Positions 30,768 through 49,441 are shown, counted from the first letter of the stretch. The stretch: DNA of 64,000 nucleotides from Candidatus Omnitrophota bacterium (GCA_041650835.1 JBAZKL010000001.1:101094-165093); one strand, 5' to 3'. Numbers and translations: made by a program. Notes: a model not told the origin generated them from the letters alone.

Positions 30768-30775
30768 TATTGCCT

Positions 30776-33014: not shown

Positions 33015-33038
33015 AACATCACCCGCTTTCTCTATATA

Positions 33039-34677: not shown

Positions 34678-35562
34678 TTACCCGCTTAACCCCAATTTTA
34701 TCCTGAATTTGCGGGAAACGATCTCAGCGATGATATTAAACACAAACGTGATCAGAAATAAAATAAGCGCGATCGCGAAAAGCGCGTGATAATGGTCGCC
34801 GCCCATAGGGGCCTCCCCCATTTCAGCTGCGATCGCCGCGGTCATCGGGCGTACCGGGACCAGAAATGAATGCGGAATGACCGCTGCGCCTCCCGCGACC
34901 ATCAATACGGTCATGGTTTCACCGATCGCGCGGCTCATTCCTAAGATGATCGCCGTTGCGATCCCCGAGCCTGCCGCGGGGACCACTACCTGCGTTAAGG
35001 TCTGCCAGCGGTTGGCACCTATGGCAAAAGAAGCCTCCCGGAAAGAACGCGGCACATAACTTAAGGCGTCCTCGGCAATACTGCAAACGCTCGGCGTCGC
35101 CATAAGCCCGAGGATAAAGCTGGCGTTCATCGCTGTCATGCCTGTAGGAAGATTGAATGTTTTCTGCAAGAAAGGAGTGACGACGACCATTCCGAAAAAC
35201 CCGAAAACGACCGAAGGGATACTCGCCAGCAGTTCTATGACCGGCTTTAAGAACTGCCGCTGCTTGAAACCGGCGATCTCATTAAGGTACAAAGCGCTTC
35301 CTATTCCTAAAGGGACGCAAACGACCACCGCTCCCAAAGTAACCAGGGTTGACGCCAGTATCAAAGGAAATATGCCGAACTCAGCAGGACTATACGTCGG
35401 GTACCAATATTTGCCGAAAACAAAATCCTTGAAACTTACTTTCGAGAAAATCGGGAGGCTTTCATTGAAAAGAACGACCACTATCGCGATCAGGAATAAT
35501 AACGACGCGAAAGCTAATATCGTGAATATCCACTTATATAATTTCTCCTTTAATCGTTTCAT
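34678..35562 (-). CDS. pstC: Phosphate ABC transporter permease PstC
   Basis: 6-TM permease. Confidence 0.85.
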   Translation of the reverse strand: MKRLKEKLYKWIFTILAFASLLFLIAIVVVLFNESLPIFSKVSFKDFVFGKYWYPTYSPAEFGIFPLILASTLVTLGAVVVCVPLGIGSALYLNEIAGFKQRQFLKPVIELLASIPSVVFGFFGMVVVTPFLQKTFNLPTGMTAMNASFILGLMATPSVCSIAEDALSYVPRSFREASFAIGANRWQTLTQVVVPAAGSGIATAIILGMSRAIGETMTVLMVAGGAAVIPHSFLVPVRPMTAAIAAEMGEAPMGGDHYHALFAIALILFLITFVFNIIAEIVSRKFRIKLGLSG

Positions 35563-35623: not shown

Positions 35624-36439
35624 TTACTTTAACCCGACATATCCTTCACCCTCAACGAGCGCCTGACCAGCCTTACTTTTTACAAAATCCAGATATTCTT
35701 TTACCATTCCTTGCGGCTTGCCCTTAGAATACATAAAAAGCGGGCGGGTCACGGGATATTCTCCGGATAAAACTGTTTCTTTTGAGGCCACGACCCCATC
35801 GATCTCAAGAGCCTTGATATCCGAGGTCAGGAATCCCAATCCGACATAACCGATCGCGGCCGGAGTCTGAGTAACGTTCTGGGCGACCGCTTGGTTTGAA
35901 GCCTGCATCAACGCGTCAGGCCTGACCTTCTGGTTGTCCATCACCAAAACCCCGAACGCTTCAAAAGTCCCGCTTGAAGTATCCCGGGAAATAACCACGA
36001 TCTTACCCGGATTACCGCCTATTTGCGACCAATCGGAAACTCTCCCCGCGAAAATGTCCTTTACCTGCTTTTTAGAAAGTTTAGATAACGGGTTGGATTT
36101 GTTCACTACTACCGCGATACCATCCATCGCGACGATATGAGCAACAGGGTCCCTGCCGTTCGCGGCCGCCTGCTGAATCTCAGTATCTTTGATCGCCCGT
36201 GAAGCATCGGCTATATCGCAGGTGCCGTCAATAAGAGCGGCGATACCAACGCTTGAGCCTCCGCCCCGCACCGATATATCGGCGTTCGCGTTTGAGTCCA
36301 TAAAAGCCTCAGCGGTCTTCTGCGCGATAGGAAGCACCGTTGTAGAACCGGCGATAACGATCTTCTCGGCGAAACAAGCTGTGGCAGCAAGGCTTAAACC
36401 CGCAATTCCCGCCAGCATCAACATGACAAACTTTTTCAT
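35624..36439 (-). CDS. pstS: Phosphate-binding protein PstS
   Basis: Signal peptide plus PBP-like IAGSTTV...SRDTSSGT motifs. Confidence 0.85.
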   Translation of the reverse strand: MKKFVMLMLAGIAGLSLAATACFAEKIVIAGSTTVLPIAQKTAEAFMDSNANADISVRGGGSSVGIAALIDGTCDIADASRAIKDTEIQQAAANGRDPVAHIVAMDGIAVVVNKSNPLSKLSKKQVKDIFAGRVSDWSQIGGNPGKIVVISRDTSSGTFEAFGVLVMDNQKVRPDALMQASNQAVAQNVTQTPAAIGYVGLGFLTSDIKALEIDGVVASKETVLSGEYPVTRPLFMYSKGKPQGMVKEYLDFVKSKAGQALVEGEGYVGLK

Positions 36440-36516: not shown

Positions 36517-37818
36517 TTAAAACTTCAAGTTCCAATCAACCTGAATCAAAGTTTCCGGAGCAAACGGCTTTGCCAATTTCTGCGCGCGGTAAACGTCGAG
36601 TTCAAGCCATGTATTCTTACCTAAACCATACGCGAATTTAAATTCATGGGCCTTTATATTCGTCTGCCCGCCATAACGGTCGGAATCAGGCAAAATATCA
36701 AGGATCGCGTTTCTCTCAAGCCTGACAAAATTGTAGGTAGCCTGCCAATCGCCCCATCCGGCGATCTTCTCGGCTCCTAAACTCGCCCCGAACATCTGCC
36801 CGGTCTTATTATCATCCGGTACGACATCGGCTATATTAGTCACAAATTCACCGAATAATTTCAGCTGAGGCACATTAAGGAAACTAACGCCTAAAGCGCT
36901 GAACGGCTCTTTGATCTTAACTTCTACCGCGGGCGATACCGTAAAGAAATTCGCGGTAGGATACGCGAATCCTCCTTTTGAACCGGTGTTTGTATTTGTG
37001 CTGCCGTCCAAAGCATGATTTTTAACCACAAAATAATCAAGCGCGACGCCGCTCTTTAAAGAAATAGTATCCGACAATTTACCGGTAAAGCCCGGCTGCA
37101 TATGAACAAAATACGGGTCATCATTGCTGCCGCTGATCTCTTCCAGGAAATACACGCCGGATTTCAGGAACATGTTCAAGGAAGGATTAACCTTTTTATT
37201 TACGTCGAATGCCACGCCTTCAGGAGTGATATCGGTATCCCAGATCATATCTCCCGGCTCCCAAACCGAGTCGCTCAACAATAATTTCCCCCCGAAAAGC
37301 GCAAATCCCGGAAAAGGCATATACTTGGCGTAGGCGTAATCCAGGTTGAAGGGCTTTTTCGCGAAAGAATTACCTAAGGACTGGTTCGTGGAACGCACCG
37401 TATCGGCGCTGGTAGCGGTATATTCGTTGAGTCCCGTTCCCAAGCCGAAAGCAACAAGCAGCTTTTCATTGACCTTTGATTCCATTCCTAATCTCAGCCT
37501 GATACGCGCCCTCTGCCGATTATTCGTGATATCGTTGGCCGCCTTGGCATGATTGACCTGATAGCGAAGCCTGAAATCGCCTTTAAGTTTTATATTCTGG
37601 ACCCAAGCCGGCAAAGTCGCCGAAGTACTGGTCGCGATCTCTTTCTTTACCTGCTCCTGCGTCTCGATCTTGACCTGCTGCGCTTCCGCGCCGGTCAACA
37701 CCCCTTTTTCAACAAGCTTCTGTAACAAGAGGTCGATTTCTCCCGCGTATGAAGTACGCATCCCTGTTGCCGCTACGATAAATCCAAGCAATACTGCCGC
37801 TGCTACAAACTTCCTCAT
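36517..37818 (-). CDS. Outer-membrane porin, probable phosphate-selective OprO/P-like
   Basis: Signal peptide, N-terminal coiled coil, beta-rich body ending in ...WNLKF. Sits immediately upstream of pstS. Confidence 0.6.
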   Translation of the reverse strand: MRKFVAAAVLLGFIVAATGMRTSYAGEIDLLLQKLVEKGVLTGAEAQQVKIETQEQVKKEIATSTSATLPAWVQNIKLKGDFRLRYQVNHAKAANDITNNRQRARIRLRLGMESKVNEKLLVAFGLGTGLNEYTATSADTVRSTNQSLGNSFAKKPFNLDYAYAKYMPFPGFALFGGKLLLSDSVWEPGDMIWDTDITPEGVAFDVNKKVNPSLNMFLKSGVYFLEEISGSNDDPYFVHMQPGFTGKLSDTISLKSGVALDYFVVKNHALDGSTNTNTGSKGGFAYPTANFFTVSPAVEVKIKEPFSALGVSFLNVPQLKLFGEFVTNIADVVPDDNKTGQMFGASLGAEKIAGWGDWQATYNFVRLERNAILDILPDSDRYGGQTNIKAHEFKFAYGLGKNTWLELDVYRAQKLAKPFAPETLIQVDWNLKF

Positions 37819-38126
37819 TTTCCTTCCTCCTTTTAATAAGGCCTCAATTTACGGAACAGCTTAAACGTAAATTGCCGGGCCGGATTTTCCCCGCGCCGAA
37901 GCAAGGGGCACTCGTTATTGTATCCGCGTTCATCGATCAACTTTATTCTTGAGCGAATTGTTTATAAAAAAGATCCATTGCCCTTTGCTCTTCATCAAAA
38001 ACTTCTTTCAGGTATTCCGAGACCTTCTTGAGTATTTTTGCTATGATTTTATTCATCCTCTTTTAACCGTCTCTTCCTGCCGGCTTTCTTTCATTGCTTT
38101 AGTTTACAAAACCCAGGTAACAAAAT

Positions 38127-38156
38127 CCTTAACGCTTTGTGAACTTTCTGTGAAAT
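38127..38156 (+). promoter_or_regulatory. Conserved motif CCTTAAcG-TTTGTGAACTTTCTGTGAAAT (Pho-box-like direct repeats), copy i
   Basis: One of 4 copies of CCTTAAGG followed by TGTGAA-N5-(T/G)GTGAA with 11-bp periodicity. Confidence 0.45.
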
Positions 38157-38178: not shown

Positions 38179-38880
38179 TTAAGCCGACGAATCAAATTTG
38201 TACCCTTCTCCCTTTACTGTCCTGATCAACTGCGGATCTTCGGGGTCTTTTTCTATCTTTTCCCTCAAATGCCTTATATGGACATCGATGTTCCCGTATT
38301 CGACAATATTGTCCTGCCCCCAGACGGCATCCAGGATCGCGCTGTGGCTCAGTACTATACCGGGATTATTGATGAATAGCTTAAGCACGCCTCTTTCTTT
38401 CTCCGTAAAGGCTATTCTCTGATCGTTACGTTTTACCTCTAAATTTTCCTGATCGATCTCAAGTGAGCCGATCTTGATGATCTTTAAGCTTGAATTCTTG
38501 TTCTCCGACCGAGCTAAGACCCTTTTTACCCGCACTACCAGTTCGCGGGGGCTGAACGGCTTGGTGACGTAATCATCCGTGCCGAGGTCAAAACCCTTTA
38601 GTTTATCCTCGATCTCGGAAAGCGCGCTGAGTATAATAATAGGTATATGCCTGGTCTGCGGGTTATGCTTTAAACGCCGGCAGACTTCCCACCCGTCGAT
38701 CCTGGGCAGCATAATATCGAGGATAATAAGCGCGGGATTTTGAGTATTGCAGATCTCTAATGCTTCGATGCCATTGTTCGCGGAAACCACATCGTAACCG
38801 GCTATCGTCATATGAAAAGCGATCAACTTTATGATCTCCTTTTCATCCTCAACGATCAGTATCTTTCTTTTCAGCACCAT
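38179..38880 (-). CDS. OmpR-family response regulator (PhoB/PhoP-like), orphan
   Basis: REC plus Trans_reg_C. No adjacent kinase. Confidence 0.8.
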   Translation of the reverse strand: MVLKRKILIVEDEKEIIKLIAFHMTIAGYDVVSANNGIEALEICNTQNPALIILDIMLPRIDGWEVCRRLKHNPQTRHIPIIILSALSEIEDKLKGFDLGTDDYVTKPFSPRELVVRVKRVLARSENKNSSLKIIKIGSLEIDQENLEVKRNDQRIAFTEKERGVLKLFINNPGIVLSHSAILDAVWGQDNIVEYGNIDVHIRHLREKIEKDPEDPQLIRTVKGEGYKFDSSA

Positions 38881-38986: not shown

Positions 38987-39016
38987 CATTAAGGGATTGT
39001 GACTTTATGGTGAATT
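38987..39016 (+). promoter_or_regulatory. Pho-box-like motif copy ii (CATTAAGGGATTGTGACTTTATGGTGAATTT)
   Basis: Same architecture as the 38127 motif, about 110-140 nt upstream of the orphan response-regulator gene. Confidence 0.4.
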
Positions 39017-39799
39017 TGCATTTGACGTAAGGAAGCGGTTAATTTCTTCCACGTTCAAGAAGTCACCGGATTTACGGAATAATTCCCTGCTCAATAAGAG
39101 CGTTTCGATGCCCTGCTCATGCTGGCCGTTCAAATAATAGGCGTTGGCCAAAAGCCGGCAGGCCGCTGCATCCTCGGGAAACGATTCCAGGACCATTTGA
39201 GCGTATTCGATAGCCTTGCAATAATCGTCGGAAAAATAATGCGCCAACGCCAGGTTATACATCACGTCGGGGTCATTCGTTTTCATTTCCAAAGCCCTCA
39301 TCAGCTCAGGGATCGCTTCCCGGTACTTTTGGTTTAATAACAGCTCCAGCCCTTTGAACACGTAAGAGGCGTATTCTTTGCTTACCGCGCCGCTCTTTAA
39401 TTCGCGTAAAAGGCCCAGCGCTCCGGCGGCATCGAAACCGCAACCAACAGCCCGCACTTGATTGAATTCTTTTTCAGCCTCATCGAATTTGTCTTGCGAG
39501 GCGCACGCCACGCCTTTTTTGAATGAGCGTCCGGTATCCTCAAGGGCTGCTTCATCAGCCGCGGGTAAAGCGGGGCCCTCTTCAATACTCCGGATATATT
39601 TATTCTCGTAATAAACAGGCCCTGAGGCAGTATCGATCGCGATATAATCTTTTTGTTTCTCGGTAATCTTACCTTCTGTTCTTTTACCCGACTTAAGCGT
39701 AACTATATCGGCAAAAAGCGAGCCTCCGTGATAAAAAACGCATATAAAAATAACTGCCGATGTAAAAGCTCTTACGAACCTGTTTTTTACCTTGATCAT
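39005..39799 (-). CDS. TPR-repeat protein with N-terminal signal anchor
   Basis: TPR-like helical repeats (AYYLNGQHEQGIE...) and an N-terminal hydrophobic segment. Confidence 0.6.
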   Translation of the reverse strand: MIKVKNRFVRAFTSAVIFICVFYHGGSLFADIVTLKSGKRTEGKITEKQKDYIAIDTASGPVYYENKYIRSIEEGPALPAADEAALEDTGRSFKKGVACASQDKFDEAEKEFNQVRAVGCGFDAAGALGLLRELKSGAVSKEYASYVFKGLELLLNQKYREAIPELMRALEMKTNDPDVMYNLALAHYFSDDYCKAIEYAQMVLESFPEDAAACRLLANAYYLNGQHEQGIETLLLSRELFRKSGDFLNVEEINRFLTSNANSP

Positions 39800-39800
39800 T

Positions 39801-42800
39801 TTATACTCCCGGTGAAAACGTTAATCGCGCCAAATTCTCCCTGAAGAGGCCTTCCGTCCCGTTATTTTCAAGCAGTCCCAGGAAATCAGGAAGAAGCGCG
39901 TCCACATGAACGCAGTGAGCTTCCTCTAACCGCAGGATCTGCCGCATCCAAACGCGCACATACCTGATACATTCGGATAACCGCTCTTTACTGATCTTCG
40001 CTTCCATATATTCCTTAATACGCTCCAAAGATGGGATAATCCCTGCCTCGATAAGATGCTGTATGTCCCTGCCCTCAAGGTCATCAGCCGGTATTTCGGC
40101 GGGGAAAAATCCTCCATGGCCGATGGGCTCACCCTGCGTAACAACAAACGCGGAAGAGGCCGAACGCAGGTCGATCCCGCCTAATCCGGATTGTCCCGGG
40201 TTCTTCTCAACGCGTATAGCCGAAGAACTCGGCGCAACGCTCATCCCCGGGAACAGGACTTCCCCCGCGATTGCCTGAGGGACAAATACTTCATCCTTGG
40301 CCTTACGTGCCGCTGGGACTGCCTTCCCGGGATGCCCCCGTAAATAACCGCCAAGCTCCTGCATTCTCTTGCGCTGGATCCGGCTTTTATCCATTCTCAC
40401 GTAAAACGACCCCAGCGGATAAGACGAAAAATAACCTATGTCCCGGAAGCATTTCTTTATAGTATCCTTGTTCTCAAAATAATATTTGAACAGTTCATGG
40501 AAAGCCAGTATTTCTTTATCCTCCAAAGAATAATAAACATCATCGCTGCCTACCGCCGCCGCGGTATATGTGGAAAACTTCCCCGAATTCAATACCCGCA
40601 GGAGAGGGATAATAATGAACGGCATGATCCGGTAATTGTCATATCCTTCCTGAATATGTCTTTCCATAATAGGCTTCAGGCCGTTCACCGCGACCCGCGC
40701 GAACATCCTGCCCTGCTGCGGCTCCAGGCTGAACATGAACCCGCCGGTAGAAGCTAAGACATCGCTCTGCTCGAATTCAGCGTCGCCGATATGCTTCCAG
40801 TCGATAAAAGAATAGAACGGCTCATGCTTTAATTTTGTCTTTAACGTCGCGTGGTCGGCTTTTTCATATACCTCTGCCAAGCCGTTGCGGGAGCCGTTAT
40901 TGACCCCGGGGACCAGCACCCCGAACTTCTGGTCAATGACCTGTTCGAGTTTGGTCCACATGCCCCATAAAGTCACATTCGCGGTAGGGACAAAATTGCC
41001 TACCGGTATCCCATTAGAGAACATGACCATCATTTTATCGCTCTGAAGCCCGCCGGGATCATGAGGATTTTCCATGCCGGCGTTCTGAATGGTTTTCAAT
41101 AAAAGATATTCTATCCCCGTGAAAGGCCTGCCCAGGGCTTTCGCCGGCGGCAAGGGCAAAGGCTTGAATAATTCTCCGGAATTCCGGCTAAAACCGTCTA
41201 CAAACACAACCGCTTTTTTCATCCGTGTCGCGTCTTTACCATTAAGGCCCGGATATCGCGAGGTGAAATCCTTGAATTCCTGAGAATAGTAAAGATAGTC
41301 ATAAAGTTCGCAAAAACGCTGGGCGTTCTCTTTGCTTTCCGAGAATAAATATACGACGGGGAATTTCTTCTTCGCAAAGATCCCCAACGAACCCTTTACA
41401 TGCGCCATCAACTTTTCTTTATCATCTCCGCTTATTACCACGATCGCCACATCCGCGGGCAATTCTTTTTCCAACAGGCCGACAGTCGCGTCATATTCGA
41501 ATTTGAGCCGGGCCTGCCTGAAATCAACGGTTTTCCTGCCGTTCGTTTCCTGCTGCAAAAGGCGGTCATACTCTTCGACAACCCTGCTCATCTCCTTATA
41601 AAAAGGGTTCTTTACCAACTTCACTACCGCCCAGGAAAGCAGGAATGATATCCATCCCAGAAAGAACGCTCCCAGGCCGATCCATCCGACAATAGTAGCG
41701 GGAGGAGACAGCGTGACCACCATATTCATGAATGAATAACTTCCCGCGATAATGCCGCAAATACCCCCGAATCGCCCGTACATGCCTCTATTTTTCCATT
41801 TTTTTTCCAGATGCAATAAAAACGACGAATCCACCTTAAGGCCGTCAAACCATTGCTGCCAATCGTCAATGATCGTATTTTCCTTACCCGCGTACATCTC
41901 AGGCTCGACCGGCTGAGCGTACTTGAACAAACCGTGTATTTTACTTTTAAACCTTTCCATATCTTTACTGCTCATCCGTAAGCCATACCAGCACCTTACA
42001 AACCATGTATAGAAACGGCCCATCATCCCGAATTTCCTGAGCTTGTAACTGAAAGCCATCTGGAATTTATACGCGGTATTGGCATTATCTTCATACTCTA
42101 AAGCGTACGTTCCGATACGCTGCAGTTTTTCGATATCCATCTCTATCGACCGGCGCTGCTCGTCTGACATCGAGGCATGGCCGCGCAATTGAAGAAAAAG
42201 CCTGCGCTGTGTTTCCAGAGATAACTTGGTCATTTCCTGGAACGTTTTCACAAGCGGTTTTACGTTCTGATCAATGATCTCCCGCGTAAAAGGGAGCCCC
42301 CTGATCAGGGAATGCGCGATATTATTGATGGTAACGCGATCATAGTCCGTCAGGAAGCCGGACTTCTTTGACCGCAGGGACAGCTTCCATTGATTAAGGA
42401 AAGTCTTGACCAGCTCCTGGCTGAAACGATTTTCTTTGCTTTGGTTATACCAGCGGTCTTCTTCCGCGATAAATGAATTCTGCAGCAGGTCCGTGCCATT
42501 GCCTTTATTCCACCAGCGGTATAGATAATACGAAACAACCCCTCCCGCCAGTATCCCCAAACCGATCAACAAATACGGTGAAGCAAGCCACTGGCCGAGA
42601 TTTTCAAAAAGACCACTTCCCCTATCGAAATCCCCTCTTCCCGCCAATGGGTCAAGAGGCAACATCCCCGTGTCAAGGTCGCCGCGCCCTGCCAGGGGCC
42701 CGGTTCTTGGCATATCAGGGATATACGGCGGCGCGGAACCAAAAGGAACTGCCTGTCCGGTTAAATAGGCAATGGCTTCCGGGGTCGCGTATTCCTGAGG

Positions 42801-44468
42801 TATAGCGATATGCTGCCCGGAAAAAATAAGGTCGGGATCAGCGATACTTGAGTTAACGGTAAGGATCTTCCTGACCAAATTCGCTACTTCGGTATTACCC
42901 GGCTCTAAAACACCGTTGCCTTTAAGCACGTCGCGGGCGATCCCCCAAAGCGTATTCTCGGCAGGGTTAACGAATGACCAGTTTTGCGGCACAGAAAGTA
43001 ATCCCAGGCCTTTGGCGACAAATTGATGAGCAAACGCTAATCCCGGGACAAAAAAAGAACCGAAGATAAAAGCTGCAGAAACCAGTGTCTTCAATGAAGG
43101 CCGAAACCTTTCCAGGGATCCTATTTTGCGCTCTTTTAAGGGAGAGCCGGCGCTACGCGCCGGAACTTTCTCCGGGGCATCCGCGCGCGCGGGCTGCGTG
43201 ACGGCCGATAAAACCTCTTTATTGCCTTGTGTGGTATCGACCACATGCATTTTGCCTTCTTTATAGATAAATTCGGCTAATTCCGGGCTGAAAAAGATCG
43301 CTCCGTCATTCTCGCGGTTCCCGCCGATCAAACTCCGCTGTTCTCCTTCCGGGGAAGTATAGGTCTTTGCCTGTCCGGGTTTAAGCGGATGGGAGAATAA
43401 CTCAGGCATACAAGCAAGAAAATTGATCCCCCCGCTCAAGTATGTCCTGATAACCTGCCCGAAAGCGCCGGGGACGGCGGTCTTAAGATTGTATTCTCCC
43501 CGTTCAAAAGATTCCCGGTATTGCCTGAAATAATCCTCCTTTGACCAGGGTCCTGCCGAGGTCAAACCGGTAAGGTCTCCTTGATCTATGAACGCGGCGT
43601 ATATCCCGCCTTTGCCGGAGAAACGCGCCTTGAACCACTGAGCAAGGATCAATGAGTAGTAAACCTGCCTCAAAGAAGCGTAACGTTTCGCGGTATTGAC
43701 ATCATGAGTAAGCTTGGGAATGATCAACGCTTTAAGCAGGCAGGAAGAATATTCATTCAACTCTTTTAACCGTTCATCTTTAAGATCATAGGCACCGCTA
43801 TCTTTCAGATGATCATGTTCCAGCATTACCTTAAGCGTGGCCTTATAGATATAGGCGTTATCAACCGATTCCCGGATAATGATCTCACCCGGGACTATCC
43901 AGGGGCGGGTGATCGTAGGAATAACCAGGTTATCACCGCCAAAGAGAGCTTCTGCCTTGCGGTATAGTTTATCCCAGTATTCTTTACCCTCGGGTGTTTC
44001 AGGAGAGCTAAAGAGCGCGGTATCTTTCTTAAGCTGCAGGTCGGCTTCCAGAAGGATCATCCCGACATCCGTCCTGGCTAAATTATCGTCTATGATAGTA
44101 TCTTGCGAATCAGGCCGCAGGTTCACCCAAAAAGCGTCATTCGGCAGGCTTATCCCGACAAAAAAATAGTTGAGAAGCGTTTGCGCGTTATTTTCGGTTA
44201 TCCGCTTATTCAGTCCGCTCAGGCCGCCTTTATCGACCAGGCAGCTGAAATTATTATTACGGCCGTCGTAGGAAAGATACCGTAAATACTCAAAACCGGA
44301 CATGCCGGGAACAGGAGTATTTCTTAAGAAAGCTGTCCGCGAAGAGATATCCAATTCCCCGGCAACCTGAGCAATACCGCTTTGATGGAACAACAAGCAA
44401 AGAGAGAGCGCGGAAATGATTATTTTGTCCACGCAGAAACGCTCACCCTGCAGCATATGGCCCCTCAA
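39801..44468 (-). CDS. Giant (1555-aa) multidomain membrane protein: signal peptide, LysM-like domain, PLAGRGD repeats, 3 TM segments, and large domains of unknown function
   Basis: LysM pattern NTLWGIARDVL...NLVRKILTVN...GQHIAIPQ. Tandem PLAGRGDLD/PLAGRGDFD repeats. TM helices at ~aa 640, 905 and 930. No other recognisable domain. Confidence 0.6.
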   Translation of the reverse strand: MRGHMLQGERFCVDKIIISALSLCLLFHQSGIAQVAGELDISSRTAFLRNTPVPGMSGFEYLRYLSYDGRNNNFSCLVDKGGLSGLNKRITENNAQTLLNYFFVGISLPNDAFWVNLRPDSQDTIIDDNLARTDVGMILLEADLQLKKDTALFSSPETPEGKEYWDKLYRKAEALFGGDNLVIPTITRPWIVPGEIIIRESVDNAYIYKATLKVMLEHDHLKDSGAYDLKDERLKELNEYSSCLLKALIIPKLTHDVNTAKRYASLRQVYYSLILAQWFKARFSGKGGIYAAFIDQGDLTGLTSAGPWSKEDYFRQYRESFERGEYNLKTAVPGAFGQVIRTYLSGGINFLACMPELFSHPLKPGQAKTYTSPEGEQRSLIGGNRENDGAIFFSPELAEFIYKEGKMHVVDTTQGNKEVLSAVTQPARADAPEKVPARSAGSPLKERKIGSLERFRPSLKTLVSAAFIFGSFFVPGLAFAHQFVAKGLGLLSVPQNWSFVNPAENTLWGIARDVLKGNGVLEPGNTEVANLVRKILTVNSSIADPDLIFSGQHIAIPQEYATPEAIAYLTGQAVPFGSAPPYIPDMPRTGPLAGRGDLDTGMLPLDPLAGRGDFDRGSGLFENLGQWLASPYLLIGLGILAGGVVSYYLYRWWNKGNGTDLLQNSFIAEEDRWYNQSKENRFSQELVKTFLNQWKLSLRSKKSGFLTDYDRVTINNIAHSLIRGLPFTREIIDQNVKPLVKTFQEMTKLSLETQRRLFLQLRGHASMSDEQRRSIEMDIEKLQRIGTYALEYEDNANTAYKFQMAFSYKLRKFGMMGRFYTWFVRCWYGLRMSSKDMERFKSKIHGLFKYAQPVEPEMYAGKENTIIDDWQQWFDGLKVDSSFLLHLEKKWKNRGMYGRFGGICGIIAGSYSFMNMVVTLSPPATIVGWIGLGAFFLGWISFLLSWAVVKLVKNPFYKEMSRVVEEYDRLLQQETNGRKTVDFRQARLKFEYDATVGLLEKELPADVAIVVISGDDKEKLMAHVKGSLGIFAKKKFPVVYLFSESKENAQRFCELYDYLYYSQEFKDFTSRYPGLNGKDATRMKKAVVFVDGFSRNSGELFKPLPLPPAKALGRPFTGIEYLLLKTIQNAGMENPHDPGGLQSDKMMVMFSNGIPVGNFVPTANVTLWGMWTKLEQVIDQKFGVLVPGVNNGSRNGLAEVYEKADHATLKTKLKHEPFYSFIDWKHIGDAEFEQSDVLASTGGFMFSLEPQQGRMFARVAVNGLKPIMERHIQEGYDNYRIMPFIIIPLLRVLNSGKFSTYTAAAVGSDDVYYSLEDKEILAFHELFKYYFENKDTIKKCFRDIGYFSSYPLGSFYVRMDKSRIQRKRMQELGGYLRGHPGKAVPAARKAKDEVFVPQAIAGEVLFPGMSVAPSSSAIRVEKNPGQSGLGGIDLRSASSAFVVTQGEPIGHGGFFPAEIPADDLEGRDIQHLIEAGIIPSLERIKEYMEAKISKERLSECIRYVRVWMRQILRLEEAHCVHVDALLPDFLGLLENNGTEGLFRENLARLTFSPGV

Positions 44469-44484: not shown

Positions 44485-44682
44485 TCAATAAATATTGGTT
44501 CCGATATCCGTCAACTTCAATTCTTTATTTCTTGCAGACAACGGGTATTCCCGGTCACTGCCCGTCACTAATAAAGCTAATTTCTTTATGTATTCTTCAC
44601 AACAATTATTCCATCCAATATCTTCCAGGCTTTGAGGATTAAGGACTTTTTTAGGAATAATTTCCGTAAAGGTGTCACTCAT
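44485..44682 (-). CDS. Small hypothetical protein (65 aa)
   Basis: Start reassigned to MSDTFTEII..., preceded by a strong AAGGAGGG RBS. Confidence 0.45.
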   Translation of the reverse strand: MSDTFTEIIPKKVLNPQSLEDIGWNNCCEEYIKKLALLVTGSDREYPLSARNKELKLTDIGTNIY

Positions 44683-44775
44683 GCGTCCCTCCTTATTTAT
44701 AGTGCTTAAGCTTCGGCTCAACCCGGCAAAACTGTCCGCTTAACTATTCATCAAGAAGAGTATACATTAAGAGAC

Positions 44776-44808
44776 GCAACAAATTCCTTAAGGTTTTGTG
44801 AACTTTTC
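44776..44808 (+). promoter_or_regulatory. Pho-box-like motif copy iii (CCTTAAGGTTTTGTGAACTTTTCGTGAAC)
   Basis: Perfect CCTTAAGG palindrome, then direct repeats TGTGAAC-N4-CGTGAAC. Lies between the phoR stop and the small ORF / giant gene. Confidence 0.45.
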
Positions 44809-44855
44809 GTGAACTTTCGACAAGAAATTGTGACAAACAGGAAATGCGCGGAGTG

Positions 44856-46631
44856 TTACGCCAGAGGAATGGTAAAACTGAAGGTAGAACCGGCGCCAAG
44901 TTCAGATTTAACCCAGACCTGGCCGCCGTGGGCGGATACAATGTGTTTAACGATGGCTAGGCCCAGCCCCGTACCCCCGAGTTCGCGGGAACGGGCTTTG
45001 TCCGCGCGGTAGAAACGCTCGAATACGCGGGGAAGGTCTTTTTCGGAAATACCGATCCCGGTATCAGCAATATCGATTTGTAAAGCGTCATCGGTTGCCT
45101 TGGCGGAAATGACAACCGTTGCTCCTTCAGGCGAGTATTTAAGAGCGTTATCGAGTATGTTGATCATGACCTGCGAAAACCTTGCTTCATCAACACGGAT
45201 CTTAGGCAACCCCGGGAGGAGATCGATCTTGAGTGAGATCGATTTTGCCTTAGCTTGATTATCAATGATCGTTATCGCTCTTTTTATCAACACAACAGGG
45301 TCAAGTGACTCAAAAGACATCTTTAACTTGCCTGACTCTATCTTTGATAGATCAAGCAGATCGTTTATAAGGGCGGCCAGGCGGTCGGCGTCCTGACAAA
45401 TGATGCTCATGAATTCCTGAGCGTGGTCCTTATCATCGAGGGCGCCCTCAAGAAGCGTTTCGGCATAGCCTTTGATGCTTGATATCGGAGTGCGCAGTTC
45501 ATGAGAAACATTGGCGACAAAATCCCGCCTCATTTTTTCCAGGCGCCTTAATTCAGTAATATCGTGAAATACCAATATCGCCCCTTCAAGTTTTCCGTTA
45601 CTCATGATCGGCACGCCGTTCACCTTAAGGATCTTTTCATCCGGTGCGTGGACAACGATCTCTTCGATCGCAAGCTGCTGACCTCCCGTAATGATCCTTT
45701 CCACCATATCTTCCACCGAGGTATTACGGACAACCTCCAGCATCATCTTACCTTCAGGGTTTGATTCAATGAAGAAAAGCTTTCTTAAAGAAGGATTCAT
45801 CAGAAGGATATTTTCATCCGCGTCGGTAACGATCACCCCTTCGAACATGCTCGAGAGGACCAGGTCGAGTTTTGCCTTCTCTGAATTGATCTTTTCGATC
45901 TTATCCTTGATCTCATCAGACATGGCATTTAATGAACGGGCAAGTTCGCCGATCTCATCCTTGAAATAGAGAGAAGCTTTCCGGGAAAAATCGCCCCGCG
46001 CCATGAGTTTGGCGATCGCCGACATCTCTTGGAGGGGGCGTGAAACAAATACGGACACCAAATAAGTCAAACCGAGGCTTAAGAGCAATATCCCGGCAAC
46101 GCTCACCCCTACTACCCTAAGCATCTTTGACTGCAGCAATTCAACATCAAGCAGAGGGACGGAAAAGCGCAATATCCCTTCAGTTTTTTCCCGGCCAAAA
46201 GGCATTGCCGTATAAAGCATATCTTTCTTGACCGTATAACTAAAACGATTACTTACCCCCAGGCCGCGCAGTAACGCCTCCTTTACTTCAGGCCTGTTCG
46301 CGTGATTTTCAACGGCGACGAGCTGCTCTCTGGTTAAATCGGCATCCCCCAGCACTTTTCCGTCAAGTGAGATAATGGTCACGCGCAGGAAAAGTGCCTT
46401 GCCCATCTTAAGGGAAAGCTCCTGGAAATCAAGGGGGGCGGTTTTAGCTAAAAGATGAGTTTCCAACAGCTCCTTACCGAGAGTAAGCTGGCGTAAAACA
46501 TTTTTTCTAAGGTTACTTTCCACGAAGTACTTAAGGTGGGGGGCCAGATAAAAATATCCGGCTGAAATAGCAAGAACAACAACAAAACAAAAAACAAAGG
46601 TAAGCTTCCACGGAAGTTTGATCTTAATCAT
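44856..46631 (-). CDS. phoR: Phosphate regulon sensor histidine kinase PhoR-like (2 TM, HAMP, PAS, HisKA, HATPase)
   Basis: ANVSHELRTPISSIKGY H-box. Overlaps the upstream response-regulator gene by 8 nt. Confidence 0.8.
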   Translation of the reverse strand: MIKIKLPWKLTFVFCFVVVLAISAGYFYLAPHLKYFVESNLRKNVLRQLTLGKELLETHLLAKTAPLDFQELSLKMGKALFLRVTIISLDGKVLGDADLTREQLVAVENHANRPEVKEALLRGLGVSNRFSYTVKKDMLYTAMPFGREKTEGILRFSVPLLDVELLQSKMLRVVGVSVAGILLLSLGLTYLVSVFVSRPLQEMSAIAKLMARGDFSRKASLYFKDEIGELARSLNAMSDEIKDKIEKINSEKAKLDLVLSSMFEGVIVTDADENILLMNPSLRKLFFIESNPEGKMMLEVVRNTSVEDMVERIITGGQQLAIEEIVVHAPDEKILKVNGVPIMSNGKLEGAILVFHDITELRRLEKMRRDFVANVSHELRTPISSIKGYAETLLEGALDDKDHAQEFMSIICQDADRLAALINDLLDLSKIESGKLKMSFESLDPVVLIKRAITIIDNQAKAKSISLKIDLLPGLPKIRVDEARFSQVMINILDNALKYSPEGATVVISAKATDDALQIDIADTGIGISEKDLPRVFERFYRADKARSRELGGTGLGLAIVKHIVSAHGGQVWVKSELGAGSTFSFTIPLA

Positions 46632-47313
46632 TTTCTTGAAATCTATAGCCTAATCCTCTGACCGTTTCGATTTGATCCCCTATCTTTCCGAGCTTTTCTC
46701 TCAAGCGTTTGATATGGGTATCAACGGTCCGGGTAAACACATTCGCGTGCATATCCCAGACATCAGACAATAACTGCTCCCGCGACTGGATGCGGCCGGT
46801 CCTTTCAACAAGCGTGACAAGAAGTTTAAACTCCAGGGGAGTGAATTCGATCTCTTTAGTATTGACCGTCACTTTATGTTTAGGGATATCAATGGACAAT
46901 CCCCCTTGTCTTATAATATCTTTGGGAGATCCTTCAGTTTTGCCCCTTCTCAGGATCGCTTTTACGCGCAGCATCAATTCCCGGGGGCTAAAAGGCTTGA
47001 CCACATAATCATCAGCTCCAAGTTCGAGGCCGACTATCCTATCCACCTCCTCTCCTTTTGCGGTCAGCATAATAACAGGGATATCTTTAAGTTTAGTATT
47101 TTGCTTAATTGCGCGGCATACCTCAAAGCCATCCATCTTAGGGAGCATAATATCTAAAACGATCAAGTCCGCGCCCTGTTTAGTTAAAACATCCAGGGCC
47201 TTTTCGCCGTCTTCTACGACCGTAGGGTCATAACCGGCTTTCTCGGCGTTATATTTTACAAGCTTAGCTATATGTTTATCGTCTTCGATTATAAGTATTT
47301 GTTCTTTAGGCAT
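46624..47313 (-). CDS. phoB: OmpR-family response regulator PhoB-like
   Basis: REC plus Trans_reg_C. Translationally coupled to the PhoR-like kinase. Confidence 0.8.
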   Translation of the reverse strand: MPKEQILIIEDDKHIAKLVKYNAEKAGYDPTVVEDGEKALDVLTKQGADLIVLDIMLPKMDGFEVCRAIKQNTKLKDIPVIMLTAKGEEVDRIVGLELGADDYVVKPFSPRELMLRVKAILRRGKTEGSPKDIIRQGGLSIDIPKHKVTVNTKEIEFTPLEFKLLVTLVERTGRIQSREQLLSDVWDMHANVFTRTVDTHIKRLREKLGKIGDQIETVRGLGYRFQEND

Positions 47314-47545: not shown

Positions 47546-47578
47546 CCTTAAGGATTCTTTGTCATTTTGTGGTATAAT
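47546..47578 (+). promoter_or_regulatory. Pho-box-like motif copy iv fused to an extended -10 (TTTGTCATTTTGTGGTATAAT)
   Basis: CCTTAAGG, then TTGTCAT-N4-TGTGGTATAAT. The -10 ends 7 nt before the ATG at 47586, which implies a leaderless or near-leaderless mRNA. Confidence 0.5.
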
Positions 47579-47585
47579 TAACGGT

Positions 47586-48551
47586 ATGAAAAATAATTAC
47601 TTCGCGGGAATCGATATCGGCGGAACAAAAATAGCCGCAGCCTTGGCGACTAAAGACGGGAAGATCCTCAGCCGCAGCAAGTCTCCCACCCCCAAAAACG
47701 CATCCCCTGCTAAAATAGCCTCCATCGTAGCCGACCTGCTGGAAGAGATGCTTTACGCCTGCGGCATTAACAAAAAGGAATTATGTGGTGTCGGGATAGG
47801 GATCCCCGGAATAATCGACTCCGTTTCCGGGAAGATCCTGCGCACACCAAATATGCATATCGCAGGGGCAAATCTCCAAAAACAACTCAAGAAAAGGCTC
47901 AACATCAACTGTTGCCTCGGCAATGATGTTAATTTAGGGACCTTGGGGGAAAAATGGCTCGGCGCGGCAAAGAAAGCAAAGAATGTCGTCGGACTGTTCA
48001 TCGGCACAGGCATTGGCGCCGGGATCATTATTGACGGCAAGCTCTTTACCGGCAGCCACGGCGCTGCCGCGGAGATCGGCCACATGATCATTCAAGGCAG
48101 CGGCCCAAAATGCAGTTGCGGGAATACCGGCTGCCTGGAATCACTCGCCGGCAGATGGGCGATAGAAAGAGATATCAGGCAGGAAATTAAAAAAGGCAAA
48201 AAAACGCTCCTTACCAAACTTCTTGATAAGAATTCAGACCCTATCAAAAGCAAGATATTGCGCAAATCACTTGAAAAGCATGATAGGCTTACTGTCAAAA
48301 TACTTAAAGCGGCGGCGGAACAAATAGGTATCGCCTGCGTGTCCATCAGGCATATATTCGACCCGGAGATGATCGTGCTCGGCGGCGGAGTTATAGAAGC
48401 ATGCGCGGGCTTCATATTGCCGATAGTCAAGAAAACCGCGCAAAAAGACAAATTCTTTTCCACTATAGGAAGCTGCGAGATCGTCGCATCCAAGCTGGGA
48501 GATGATGCTATCGTTTTAGGAGCTATTAAACTATCCCAACAACACTCCTAA
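47586..48551 (+). CDS. ROK-family sugar kinase (glucokinase-like)
   Basis: GIDIGGTKI, the zinc motif CSCGNTGCLE and ASKHA fold. Only plus-strand gene in the window. Start taken at MKNNYF. Confidence 0.8.
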   Translation: MKNNYFAGIDIGGTKIAAALATKDGKILSRSKSPTPKNASPAKIASIVADLLEEMLYACGINKKELCGVGIGIPGIIDSVSGKILRTPNMHIAGANLQKQLKKRLNINCCLGNDVNLGTLGEKWLGAAKKAKNVVGLFIGTGIGAGIIIDGKLFTGSHGAAAEIGHMIIQGSGPKCSCGNTGCLESLAGRWAIERDIRQEIKKGKKTLLTKLLDKNSDPIKSKILRKSLEKHDRLTVKILKAAAEQIGIACVSIRHIFDPEMIVLGGGVIEACAGFILPIVKKTAQKDKFFSTIGSCEIVASKLGDDAIVLGAIKLSQQHS

Positions 48552-49441
48552 GCATCCCGCCTTAACTTCTCCCATAAACGCGTTTTCCGTAAATTCTTCC
48601 AGAGACTTACAAACTTACCATAAACACCTTTGCGTAAACCCGCGCATTCCCGCGTTAAATACGCGGCGGTCGCCTTGAGCCCTTTGTCCGGTCCCTTAAG
48701 AAAACCGGACAACACTTCAATAAGAAGGTCTAACTCATGCAAATCACCGAGGGAGTCCTGGATATCGCGGCTGGCGTAAATATAGCCGTCAAAGCGCTTG
48801 CCCTTATGACTTGGCCGGAAGATCTCCAAAGTGTAACGCAGCTTTTTAGCGGCAATACGCATGCGATGCAGCTCTTTTGTCTTTTTCGGCTTAAACACAT
48901 AGGGCGCCAAATCAAGCAATGTATCCAGCCGCTTGAGGATCATCGCTTTCTTTCGCGCGAGAAACGTATCGGCACAGGACTTACGGCTGCCGGAAGAAAT
49001 ATCACGCAAACAGTCCTTTAACCCGGGAAGCCGCGTCTTAATTTCAAATCCCTTAAGCTCAATCCCGATCCGCCCCTGCGCCTGTTCTCTTTTCCGCTTA
49101 AGGAAACGGATTATACCTTCGGTATGGATAACGCGGGAACTCTTTTTTAAGCGCTTGCGGGCGGCTTCTAAGAATTTGATCTGGACATCCAGCTGCCGCG
49201 CCAAGCCAAGCGCCCGGCCTATCTGAGCGATCTCTTTTCTCCAGGCCCTGGACTTCTTGACCGGAAGGATACCTTTAAAGGTGCTCAACGCCGCTCTTAA
49301 GCGGCGGGAAGCGACGCGCATCCGGTGAACCGGCTCTATGCCGGCTGAAAGCAAAACATCATTACGCTCTTTGAGGAAAGAATCGAGATACAGAAAAATG
49401 ATCTTGCGGGAGTAACGGTAAGGATCAATCTTATTTCGCAT
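48548..49441 (-). CDS. CHAD domain protein (polyphosphate-granule associated)
   Basis: VHRMRVASRRLRAAL and a second HRMRIAAKKLRY CHAD repeat. Start is uncertain (listed ORF begins at 49558). Confidence 0.7.
   Translation of the reverse strand: MRNKIDPYRYSRKIIFLYLDSFLKERNDVLLSAGIEPVHRMRVASRRLRAALSTFKGILPVKKSRAWRKEIAQIGRALGLARQLDVQIKFLEAARKRLKKSSRVIHTEGIIRFLKRKREQAQGRIGIELKGFEIKTRLPGLKDCLRDISSGSRKSCADTFLARKKAMILKRLDTLLDLAPYVFKPKKTKELHRMRIAAKKLRYTLEIFRPSHKGKRFDGYIYASRDIQDSLGDLHELDLLIEVLSGFLKGPDKGLKATAAYLTRECAGLRKGVYGKFVSLWKNLRKTRLWEKLRRDA

What the first reader, a model, noticed from the sequence alone, without database searches (positions are those of the whole stretch)
39801..44468. 1555-aa orphan multidomain membrane protein (LysM + RGD repeats) embedded in the Pho regulon
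A single 4.7-kb ORF sits between phoR and the orphan PhoB-like regulator.

- It encodes a signal peptide and a ~600-aa exported region with a clear LysM-like peptidoglycan-binding motif.
- It has tandem PLAGRGD(L/F)D repeats.
- It has three TM helices and ~850 aa of further sequence with no motif I recognise.

Its promoter region carries the Pho-box-like motif, and it is followed by a TPR protein. I do not recognise a described family for a phosphate-starvation-linked, peptidoglycan-binding giant envelope protein.
Basis: partly seen in the sequence, partly recalled or inferred. Interest (0 to 1): 0.55.

Follow-up and report, generated by a model that had tools for sequence, protein, structure and literature searches.

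The report
Phosphate-locus membrane protein with nucleotidyltransferase fold
The big gene is real and is not an orphan: its core is a membrane-anchored domain shaped like a sugar-nucleotide-making enzyme, which in every related genome that could be checked sits inside the phosphate-uptake gene cluster, and it is capped by two end-pieces that hundreds of other proteins of the same uncultured phylum (Omnitrophota) also carry.

Summary
The ORF (39801-44456, minus strand, 1551 aa from the ATG) is a real gene of a Candidatus Omnitrophota MAG.

**Setting confirmed.** The order is phoB-phoR, a 65-aa ORF, this gene, a secreted TPR protein with overlapping stop/start, a PhoB-like regulator, a porin, pstSCAB and phoU. 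A promoter block with TTCAC-N6-TTCAC repeats is shared with the porin/pst operon.

**"Orphan" is wrong.**
- Residues 11-346 and about 1420-1551 are N- and C-terminal modules shared with hundreds of Omnitrophota multi-enzyme proteins. Neither module is in Pfam or NCBIfam.
- The "motif-less" 850 aa hold a helical region, a TM hairpin and a 400-aa domain modelled at pLDDT 88.

**Phosphate link.** This cassette is rare: 17 representatives in 1.84 billion proteins. All 11 informative loci lie in pst/pho clusters, including relatives that lack the N- and C-modules.

**Catalysis.** In this orthologue group the glycine-rich nucleotide loops are degenerate, so a regulatory or scaffold role is more likely than catalysis.

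**Weaker points.** The LysM call is borderline (19.9 bits against a cut-off of 20.9). Topology is unresolved. The function is inferred, not shown.

The parts
44759..44834 (-). Promoter block upstream of the small ORF and the large gene. It contains TTCAC-N6-TTCAC direct repeats (44798-44813), which are like a PhoB/OmpR-type box, and a -10 TATACT (44759-44764).
   Evidence: The pattern occurs exactly twice in the window against 0.12 expected. About 50 nt align with the porin/pst promoter. The sequence was read.
44485..44682 (-). 65-aa ORF with a strong RBS (AAGGAGGG), lying between phoR and the large gene. A 61-aa ORF occupies the same position in one orthologous locus.
   Evidence: Function unknown; not conserved in L001-L003, where the gap is under 135 bp.
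39801..44456 (-). The large gene: 1551 aa from the ATG, stop codon included.
   Evidence: 100% identity and coverage to a 1551-aa NCBI protein.
44367..44456 (-). N-terminal hydrophobic stretch (aa 1-30). It looks like a Sec signal peptide ending in ...SGIA|QVAG. The FEQSGFAQ(V/I)AG sequence is conserved across the paralogues, which is unusual for a signal peptide.
43419..44426 (-). N-module (aa 11-346). It is 55-66% identical to the N-termini of hundreds of Omnitrophota multi-domain proteins and matches no Pfam or NCBIfam model.
43026..43091 (-). TM1 (aa 456-477). It resembles an internal signal peptide, with a basic N-flank and A-F-A|HQF.
42798..42956 (-). LysM-like segment (aa ~501-553).
   Evidence: Pfam LysM scores 19.9 bits, E 7.2e-4, below the gathering score of 20.9. 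A SafA LysM sub-hit has E 0.004.
42624..42701 (-). Two (G/D)PLAGRGD(L/F)D motifs (aa 586-611), directly before TM2.
   Evidence: The proximal copy is conserved in 6 of 6 orthologues.
42519..42584 (-). TM2 (aa 625-646). Its N-flank is acidic and its C-flank basic in 5 of 5 orthologues.
41787..42509 (-). Helical region (aa 650-890), the first part of the pho-linked core cassette. The only similarity is a weak one to spectrin repeats.
   Evidence: E 0.014, not significant.
41619..41780 (-). TM3-TM4 hairpin (aa 893-946), with both outer flanks basic in 5 of 5 orthologues.
40335..41534 (-). Nucleotidyltransferase-fold domain (aa 975-1374), closest to the GDP-fucose pyrophosphorylase domain of FKP. 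The glycine-rich loops are degenerate in this orthologue group.
39807..40181 (-). C-module (aa ~1426-1550): GGIDLR followed by a helical AGIIPSxERIKEY...RLEE domain, shared with the same paralogues that carry the N-module.
   Evidence: BLASTP gives 33-34% identity with E 2e-13 and 2e-9. It is visible in all 37 paralogues fetched.
39005..39799 (-). TPR protein with its own signal peptide. Its start overlaps the large gene's stop (ATGA), and the same overlap is seen in orthologous locus L001.
   Evidence: A TPR neighbour is also present.
38139..38154 (-). Second copy of the TTCAC-N6-TTCAC box, upstream of the porin-pstSCAB operon.

Best explanation
The gene encodes a mosaic inner-membrane protein of the phosphate (Pho) gene cluster.

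**Shown**
1. Its core is a cassette of a helical region, a two-helix membrane hairpin and a ~400-aa domain with the sugar-1-phosphate nucleotidyltransferase fold. The closest solved relative is the GDP-fucose pyrophosphorylase half of FKP.
2. This cassette is rare. With or without the Omnitrophota end-modules, it was found only inside pst/phoU/phoBR/ppk clusters.
3. In Omnitrophota the cassette is bracketed by a ~340-aa N-module and a ~130-aa C-module. Hundreds of unrelated multi-enzyme proteins of the phylum share these modules.
4. This lineage adds a TM1 / LysM-like / RGDFD / TM2 insert and a translationally coupled, secreted TPR partner.
5. The promoter carries direct TTCAC repeats shared with the porin-pst promoter.

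**Inferred**
- The gene is switched on by the PhoB-type regulator under phosphate limitation.
- Charge bias places the helical region, the nucleotidyltransferase-fold domain and the C-module on the cytoplasmic face. The LysM-like loop then faces the periplasm, where it and the TPR partner could contact the wall.
- Relatives with intact GSG / AGG / DG / EK loops probably make or handle a nucleotide-activated sugar (or a similar phospho-compound) at the membrane, as part of phosphorus-sparing envelope remodelling next to the Pst transporter.
- In this orthologue group the glycine-rich loops are lost. The domain therefore most likely binds a ligand or a partner and acts as a regulatory or scaffolding pseudoenzyme, as eIF2B gamma/epsilon and GMPPA do within the same fold.
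For: - **Orthologues and paralogues:**
- **Cassette rarity:** 17 hits at E<=1e-3 among 1.84e9 representatives.
- **Synteny, 11 of 11 informative loci in pho clusters:**
  - this window;
  - P0003-P0006;
  - P0090 and P0122;
  - P0125, lying between pstA and pstB;
  - P0134, in the same phoB-phoR-X-RR-porin-pst order as here;
  - P0131, next to Metallophos, GT4 and MGDG-synthase genes;
  - P0129.
- **Motif decay:** the GSG loop is kept in 13 of 15 distant relatives and lost in all 5 orthologues. FKP residue roles come from PMC11982464.
- **Promoter:**
- **Charge bias at TM2 and the TM3/4 hairpin:** 5 of 5 orthologues.
- **TPR partner:** it has a signal peptide and its start overlaps the large gene's stop.
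- **LysM-like segment:**
Against: - The N-terminus has every feature of a cleavable Sec signal peptide. By parity, that would put the N-module and the nucleotidyltransferase-fold domain outside the cytoplasm. The topology is therefore not settled.
- LysM is below Pfam's threshold. The AF2 model of aa 1-649 was too poor to test its fold (pLDDT 44.8).
- The mapping of the family's loops onto FKP catalytic residues rests on the order of secondary-structure elements. No residue-level superposition was available.
- This protein keeps the E-K motif and its orthologues keep the D-G aspartate, so residual or altered catalysis is possible.
- No sequence method links the domain to any nucleotidyltransferase family.
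- There are no expression data, and no substrate is known.
- Nothing explains what the N- and C-modules do.
Confidence: 0.4

Rival explanations
1. It is an active, membrane-anchored NDP-sugar (or related) pyrophosphorylase. Under phosphate starvation it would supply activated sugars at the membrane for phosphorus-free glycolipids or glycans, using active-site residues other than the canonical glycine loops.
For: - The fold matches active enzymes.
- The E-K motif is kept in this protein, and D-G is kept in its orthologues.
- Distant relatives keep all loops.
- One relative's locus carries Metallophos, GT4 and MGDG-synthase-type genes, a set typical of lipid remodelling.
Against: - The GSG and AGG loops are lost in all five orthologues. 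In FKP these loops sandwich the base and hold the phosphates (PMC11982464).
- In this protein the presumed Mg-binding Asp is replaced by Asn.
Confidence: 0.25
2. It is an exported surface protein or effector. The N-terminal signal peptide would be real, and the N-module with the LysM-like/RGD region (about 600 aa) or the whole protein would lie outside the cell. It would bind the wall of the cell itself or of a host or prey cell. This is the first reader's view, extended to the N/C-module family acting as a secretion tag.
For: - The n-h-c signal peptide is canonical.
- Omnitrophota are thought to be host-dependent and carry many SP+TM long proteins (PMC10066038; bioRxiv 10.64898/2026.06.07.730766).
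- The LysM-like and RGD motifs fit this view.
- The partner TPR protein is secreted.
Against: - Charge bias puts the region after TM2 and both ends of the hairpin in the cytoplasm in 5 of 5 orthologues.
- In P0090 only the two-helix hairpin separates the N-module from a nucleotidyltransferase domain with intact NTP loops, so the two lie on the same side.
- Paralogues carry cytoplasm-type enzymes such as radical SAM, kinases and methyltransferases. They also carry internal Sec/Tat-like signals after the N-module, which need a cytoplasmic N-flank.
- The linkage to the pst operon points to a housekeeping role.
Confidence: 0.2
3. It is an accessory or regulatory subunit of the Pst-PhoU-PhoR signalling complex. 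The cassette would dock on PstCAB or PhoR, and its nucleotide-binding fold would sense a metabolite such as GTP, an NDP-sugar or polyphosphate-related nucleotides to tune Pho signalling.
For: - The gene's position is always beside phoU, phoR or pst genes. In one case it lies between pstA and pstB with overlapping reading frames.
- FKP's N-terminal domain itself has an extra, possibly allosteric, nucleotide site (PMC11982464).
- The fold has precedents as a pseudoenzyme.
Against: No interaction evidence. This overlaps with the best explanation and is not separable from it with the present data.
Confidence: 0.1

Closest known systems
GDP-fucose pyrophosphorylase (N-terminal) domain of bifunctional FKP, Bacteroides fragilis (PDB 9iis/9iit; PMC11982464)
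   Different: - Sequence identity is 10-12%, and no sequence method finds the relationship.
- There is no fucokinase half and no beta-helix.
- The domain is membrane-anchored by a hairpin.
- The nucleotide loops are degenerate in this orthologue group.
- The genomic setting is pst/pho, not fucose salvage.
Nucleotidyltransferase-fold pseudoenzymes (eIF2B gamma/epsilon, GMPPA)
   Different: The similarity is in fold only. Those proteins are soluble eukaryotic complexes. A pseudoenzyme status for this protein is inferred from motif loss, not shown.
PhoU and other accessory genes of pst operons
   Same: The genomic niche is the same: adjacent to phoU, phoBR and pstSCAB in every informative locus. 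The promoter resembles the pst promoter.
   Different: The fold and size are unrelated, the protein is membrane-embedded, and it is not present in model organisms.
LysM-domain membrane proteins
   Same: The segment at aa ~501-553 aligns to LysM profile positions 7-43.
   Different: The match is below the gathering score, has a long insertion, and is not detected in four of five related segments. The fold could not be checked.
Multi-enzyme long proteins of Omnitrophota (bioRxiv 10.64898/2026.06.07.730766; PMC10066038)
   Same: The phylum is the same. So is the habit of stringing cytoplasm-type enzyme domains into long SP/TM-bearing polypeptides. The same Pfam families occur in the paralogues' cargo: methyltransferase, HATPase, GNAT, radical SAM and ROK.
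   Different: Those papers treat proteins of 10,000 aa or more. In the passages I read they do not describe the shared N- and C-modules. This protein is 1.5 kaa and is tied to the pho cluster.

Membership tests
LysM domain (Pfam PF01476) | Score at or above Pfam's gathering threshold (20.9 bits) | tested here: not met
   The excised segment scores 19.9 bits, E 7.2e-4. Nothing appears on the whole protein. The NCBIfam SafA LysM sub-hit has E 0.004, 17 bits against a cut-off of 67.85.
LysM domain (Pfam PF01476) | beta-alpha-alpha-beta fold | tested here: inconclusive
   The AF2 model of aa 1-649 has pLDDT 44.8, and below 50 over aa 463-558.
Sugar-1-phosphate nucleotidyltransferase fold (FKP-NTD / GFPP type) | Three-dimensional fold | tested here: met
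Sugar-1-phosphate nucleotidyltransferase fold (FKP-NTD / GFPP type) | Sequence membership (Pfam Fucokinase / NTP_transferase models, or PDB sequences) | tested here: not met
   There are no hits at E<=1 for 11 family members, none for the query, and none in profile searches of PDB sequences.
Sugar-1-phosphate nucleotidyltransferase fold (FKP-NTD / GFPP type) | Glycine-rich nucleotide loops and the Mg-binding Asp (FKP G38/S39, G75/G76, D136, K187; PMC11982464) | tested here: not met
   In this protein GSG is replaced by ENA, AGG by DGF, and DG by NG; EK is kept. In orthologues P0003/4/6 the corresponding residues are GSL, KTS, DG/DA and ET. In this alignment the GSG and EK loops are intact in most distant relatives, and D at the DG position in 11 of 15 rows; the AGG loop is kept in only three of them (P0127, P0128, P0132). 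The residue mapping is inferred from the order of secondary-structure elements.
Sugar-1-phosphate nucleotidyltransferase fold (FKP-NTD / GFPP type) | NTP + sugar-1-phosphate turnover | not testable with these tools
   This needs an enzyme assay.
Pho regulon member | Conserved linkage to pst/phoU/phoBR genes | tested here: met
   11 of 11 informative loci. Two contigs were too short to judge.
Pho regulon member | PhoB-type direct-repeat box in the promoter | tested here: met
   TTCAC-N6-TTCAC occurs twice against 0.12 expected, both times in pho promoters, and the surrounding block is shared with the porin-pst promoter. That PhoB binds it is an inference. The exact pattern is absent from the ten related loci fetched at that point.
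Pho regulon member | Induction under phosphate limitation | not testable with these tools
   This needs transcriptomics or proteomics.
Polymorphic toxin / adhesin | Conserved trafficking end plus a variable toxin tip with an adjacent immunity gene, or known adhesin repeats | tested here: not met
   No toxin, Rhs, haemagglutinin or adhesin family is found in Pfam or NCBIfam. Both ends are conserved and the middle varies. The neighbours are a TPR protein and pho genes.
Omnitrophota N-module / C-module proteins (not a described family) | N-terminal ~340-aa module at 45-66% identity | tested here: met
   87 loci in species-representative genomes, up to 6 per genome.
Omnitrophota N-module / C-module proteins (not a described family) | C-terminal GGID(F/L)R + AGIIPSxERIKEY...RLEE module | tested here: met
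   BLASTP E 2e-13 and 2e-9. It is present in all 37 paralogues fetched.

The most novel reading that the evidence does not exclude
Two things may be new together.

1. The helical region + hairpin + nucleotidyltransferase-fold cassette may be an unrecognised, conserved component of phosphate-acquisition loci in Omnitrophota and neighbouring uncultured lineages. It would tie Pst/Pho signalling to nucleotide-sugar chemistry at the membrane.

2. The N- and C-modules that bracket it may be a phylum-specific tagging system. Such a system would send hundreds of different multi-enzyme cargo proteins to one common destination or assembly, such as a membrane-associated lattice, a secretion route towards host cells, or a processing machine that cuts at the recurrent A/G-S-S-P linkers and exposes internal Sec/Tat signals. 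This protein would then be the phosphate-module cargo of that system.
Probability: 0.2. Interest if true: 0.85.

Novelty: new variant of a known kind. Interest (0 to 1): 0.6.

Why it matters
- Pho/pst clusters are among the best-studied bacterial loci. Even so, a large conserved gene sits inside them in a whole set of uncultured lineages with no annotation at all.
- Knowing that its core has a GDP-sugar pyrophosphorylase fold gives a concrete, testable handle on how these ultra-small, possibly host-dependent bacteria cope with phosphate scarcity. The tests are substrate screens on relatives with intact loops and pull-downs with Pst/PhoU.
- Separately, one N-terminal and one C-terminal module cap hundreds of otherwise unrelated enzyme fusions in Omnitrophota. 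Neither module is modelled in Pfam or NCBIfam.
- If these modules are a sorting or assembly tag, they would help explain the phylum's unusual long multi-enzyme proteins.

Tried and rejected
**Searches that found nothing**
- Pfam and NCBIfam on the whole protein and on 11 family members gave nothing significant.
- Profile searches of PDB sequences, with the full-length profile and with the domain profile, gave only noise: spectrin at E 0.014 and parvalbumin at E 0.44.

**Searches that failed for technical reasons**
- The word-indexed homologue search with the cargo region returned only the 82%-identical fragment. The same search with the domain profile returned only another fragment. Both missed known orthologues, so two of the three searches were wasted.
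- AF2 of aa 1-649 with 18 sequences gave pLDDT 44.8. It is unusable, so the fold of the N-module and the LysM fold remain untested.
- The afdb50 fold library was not available.

**Negative checks**
- There is no other copy of the N- or C-module in this 64-kb window.
- The exact Pho-box pattern is absent from the ten related loci fetched by then. The 17-nt pattern with mismatches is not enriched window-wide, with 5 matches against 2.1 expected. Only the tighter 16-nt form is enriched.

**Readings considered and rejected**
- Polymorphic toxin or adhesin: no such domains, and both ends are conserved.
- Tandem-repeat protein: there are only two short RGD motifs.
- A hitch-hiker unrelated to pho genes: ruled out by 11 of 11 synteny.
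- Annotation or frameshift artefact: the ORF is intact in five genomes.

**Literature**
- Three full-text searches that included the term Omnitrophota, plus reading of two Omnitrophota papers, found no description of the shared end-modules.

Full report
**1. The observation**

The ORF is real. The ORF listing gives 39801..44468(-) from a TTG. The ATG at 44456 is preceded by GAGGGG and yields 1551 aa. This sequence is identical over its full length to NCBI 'MAG: hypothetical protein WC695_00660 [Candidatus Omnitrophota bacterium]', carried on an 868-kb contig.

Pfam confirms the neighbourhood. All genes below are on the minus strand unless marked:

| Feature | Coordinates |
|---|---|
| phoB-type regulator | 46624-47313 |
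| phoR-type kinase | 44856-46631 |
| 65-aa ORF with a strong RBS | 44485-44682 |
| the large gene | 39801-44456 |
| TPR protein | 39005-39799 |
| second OmpR/PhoB-type regulator | 38179-38880 |
| Porin_5 | 36517-37818 |
| pstS | 35624-36439 |
| pstC | 34678-35562 |
| pstA | 33792-34640 |
| pstB | 33032-33799 |
| phoU | 32349-33014 |
| LMW phosphatase | 31893-32327 |

On the other side of phoB lie ROK (47559-48551, plus strand), CHAD (48548-49558), ppk (49431-51461), ppx (51468-53021) and a histidine phosphatase (53047-53541).

**2. Not an orphan**

A search of 5.8 billion proteins found three kinds of relative:
- a 75%-identical fragment;
- four full-length orthologues at 35% identity and 98% coverage (P0003-P0006);
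- hundreds of Omnitrophota proteins of 900-2700 aa that match only 21-28% of the query, but at 50-66% identity.

Pairwise alignments place that match at residues 11-346. They also show a second shared block at the extreme C-terminus: GGID(L/F)R followed by about 100 helical residues containing AGIIPSxERIKEY...RLEE. This block scores 33-34% identity with E 2e-13 and 2e-9.

Every one of the 37 paralogues I fetched has both ends. Between the ends they carry unrelated cargo: metallophosphoesterase+FHA, MidA-type and other methyltransferases, GNAT, M48 and M23 peptidases, HATPase, Ser/Thr kinase, radical SAM, PEP-utilising enzymes, glutamate dehydrogenase and glycosyltransferases.

A scan of one genome per species found 87 loci encoding the N-module. 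Nearly all are in Omnitrophota MAGs, with up to six per genome. This is a lower bound, because the scan used exact peptide words from this one query. There is no second copy in this window.

Neither module matches Pfam or NCBIfam. I also found no description of them in three full-text literature searches that included the term Omnitrophota, or in two Omnitrophota papers that discuss long multi-enzyme proteins.

**3. What the 'motif-less' half is**

I made a profile of residues 650-1415 from the six orthologues and searched it against 1.84 billion cluster representatives. It found only 17 proteins at E<=1e-3, so the family is rare.
- Most hits also carry the N- and C-modules.
- P0125, P0131, P0132 and P0134 do not.

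Reading the alignment, the distant relatives share four blocks: 'PSAD-IVLV', 'DVPV...G.GSG.A', 'R.vVLLAGG' and 'GG.a..F.DG..v'. These reminded me of the GDP-fucose pyrophosphorylase part of FKP. That was a lead from memory, so I tested it.

AlphaFold2 on residues 975-1374 with a 20-sequence alignment gave pLDDT 87.8 and pTM 0.90.
- Foldseek against the PDB gave one significant hit: full-length FKP 9iit_A, at E 4e-6 and probability 1.0.

The fold assignment is therefore solid. Sequence methods do not see the relationship.

**4. Is the domain likely to be catalytic?**

The FKP paper assigns the following roles (PMC11982464):
- Gly38/Ser39 and Gly75/Gly76 hold the nucleotide;
- Arg80 and Lys89 hold the phosphates;
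- Asp136 binds Mg;
- Lys187 assists the attack.

In the model the family's conserved loops fall at equivalent places:

| Structural position (model numbering) | Motif in the family |
|---|---|
| loop after strand E60-65, before helix H70-83 | GSG |
| after strand E106-113 | AGG |
| after strand E166-172 | DG |
| after strand E218-223 | EK |

The column table shows how well each loop is kept:

| Loop | Distant relatives | This protein and its 83% relative | P0003 / P0004 / P0006 |
|---|---|---|---|
| GSG | kept in 13 of 15 | ENA | GSL |
| AGG | kept in several | lost | lost |
| DG (Asp) | mostly kept | Asn | Asp kept |
| EK | mostly kept | kept | ET |

The mapping onto FKP residues is inferred from the order of secondary-structure elements, because I could not obtain a residue-level superposition. 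My reading is that the distant relatives are probably enzymes. The orthologue group to which this gene belongs has probably lost canonical catalysis.

**5. The phosphate link**

This is the strongest result.
- All four orthologues lie in [pstB]-LMWPc-phoU-X-TPR(-TPR)-pstSCAB, or in phoU-X-TPR-TPR-HisPhos-ppx-ppk-CHAD-ROK.
- P0090 and P0122 have about 25% identity in the domain and intact loops. They lie in porin-pstSCAB-LMWPc-phoU-TPR-X-pstSCAB-phoU.
- P0129 lies in phoU-LMWPc-X-TPR-HisPhos-ppx-ppk-CHAD-ROK.

The relatives without N- and C-modules are also linked:
- P0125 lies between pstA and pstB, and its start overlaps pstA.
- P0134 lies in phoB-phoR-X-RR-porin-pstSCAB-phoU, the same order as in this window.
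- P0131 lies in ppk-CYTH-Metallophos-GT4-MGDG_synth-RR-X-porin-pstSCAB-phoU.

That makes 11 of 11 informative loci. Two contigs were too short to judge. The link therefore belongs to the helical region + hairpin + nucleotidyltransferase-fold cassette, not to the Omnitrophota end-modules.

**6. Promoter**

TTCAC-N6-TTCAC occurs exactly twice in the window, against 0.12 expected, and 0 of 100 shuffles reach two.
- One site is at 44798-44813, upstream of the small ORF and the large gene.
- The other is at 38139-38154, upstream of the porin-pst operon.
- Both are on the coding strand.

The two regions align over about 50 nt, including a -10 element (TATACT and TAAACT). Direct repeats with an 11-bp period are what OmpR/PhoB-family regulators bind; this is established knowledge. 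Binding at these sites is inferred.

**7. The insert, the partner and the topology**

*The LysM-like segment.* Residues 476-568, when excised, hit Pfam LysM at 19.9 bits and E 7e-4, covering profile positions 7-43. This is just under the 20.9-bit threshold. Related segments from four relatives score worse or not at all.

*The RGD motif.* It is a conserved membrane-proximal (N/D)P(L/F)x.RGD(F/L)(D/G), present in 6 of 6 orthologues, with a second copy in some.

*The partner.* The TPR protein has its own signal peptide, and its start overlaps the large gene's stop. The same overlap is seen in locus L001.

*Charge bias.*
- The N-flank of TM2 is acidic and its C-flank basic in 5 of 5 orthologues.
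- Both outer flanks of the TM3/TM4 hairpin are basic in 5 of 5.
- This puts the helical region and the nucleotidyltransferase-fold domain in the cytoplasm and the LysM-like loop in the periplasm. That is also where a LysM domain and an NTP-using fold respectively belong.

*Parity.* There are four TM segments between the N-module and the domain in this protein, and only the two-helix hairpin in P0090. Parity therefore places the N-module on the same side as the domain.

*Support from the paralogues.* Cytoplasm-type cargo enzymes point the same way. So do internal Sec- or Tat-like signals after the N-module, for example SRRNFLK...ALA in P0007, P0011, P0012 and P0035.

*The conflict.* The very N-terminus looks like a textbook cleavable signal peptide. 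I cannot resolve this with the tools available, and I carry the exported reading as a rival.

**8. Most likely mechanism**

Confidence is about 0.4. The protein is a phosphate-starvation-induced inner-membrane protein, and its conserved cassette works at the cytoplasmic face beside the Pst system.
- In relatives with intact loops, the cassette probably makes or handles a nucleotide-activated sugar or a similar compound for phosphorus-sparing envelope remodelling. The lipid-remodelling-type neighbours of P0131 fit this.
- In this orthologue group it more likely acts as a ligand-binding regulatory or scaffold domain.
- The periplasmic LysM-like loop and the secreted TPR partner would tie it to the wall.
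- The N- and C-modules presumably provide a localisation or assembly function common to hundreds of Omnitrophota proteins. Their mechanism is unknown.

**9. Verdict**

- The phosphate-linked interpretation is supported.
- The 'orphan' and 'no motif' parts are overturned.
- The 'exported peptidoglycan-binding' part is uncertain.

The protein is a new variant of a known kind: a known fold in a known regulon, but in an undescribed family and architecture. The N/C-module bracket family is a separate, possibly more interesting lead.

Noticed in passing
P0007, P0011, P0012, P0035, P0069 (paralogues fetched); in the window, compare aa 456-477 = 43026-43091: Many paralogues carry an internal twin-arginine-type signal after the N-module (e.g. 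VSRRNFLKWLGVSAASLVALQL..ALA), or a Sec-type signal with AXA. It lies hundreds of residues from the N-terminus. This would only make sense if the N-module is cytoplasmic, is cut off, or is translated separately.
   Followed up: partly
window aa 436-440 (AGSP), 1410-1413 and 1433-1436; throughout the paralogues: Short A/G-S-S-(P/A) motifs such as ASSP, AGSP and SSSP recur at the borders between modules in the paralogues, and before TM1 and the C-module here. They may be flexible linkers or processing sites of a polyprotein.
   Followed up: partly
window 37943-38056 (-) and 44485-44682 (-): Each of the two TTCAC-box promoters is followed first by a small ORF (37 aa and 65 aa) and only then by the large gene or operon. 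Related loci also show ORFs of 57-70 aa at these positions.
   Followed up: no
window 30066-31855 (-) and 38179-38880 (-): The cluster holds three OmpR-type regulators and two kinases: phoBR, a lone PhoB-like regulator, and a DUF4118 (KdpD-like) kinase with its regulator next to TrkH. Which regulator binds the TTCAC boxes is open.
   Followed up: no
L092 2743-5676 (locus of P0131): A distant cassette relative sits beside a metallophosphoesterase, a GT4 glycosyltransferase and an MGDG-synthase-type gene. This set resembles the phospholipid-to-glycolipid remodelling genes used under phosphate starvation in other bacteria.
   Followed up: no
L010 1896-5681 (P0125): A cassette relative without the Omnitrophota end-modules is inserted between pstA and pstB with overlapping reading frames, as if it were a subunit of the transporter operon.
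   Followed up: partly
window 17426-24503 (-): The stretch with raised G+C (0.51-0.55) and strong AT skew is not rRNA. It is a complex-I/Mbh-like operon with 20-kDa, 49-kDa, NuoH-like and two antiporter-like subunits.
   Followed up: yes
L014, L015, L017, L036, L074: A few genomes carrying the N-module are labelled 'uncultured Planctomycetales', Thermodesulfovibrionia or Deltaproteobacteria. These may be mislabelled or contaminated MAGs, or real spread of the module outside Omnitrophota.
   Followed up: no
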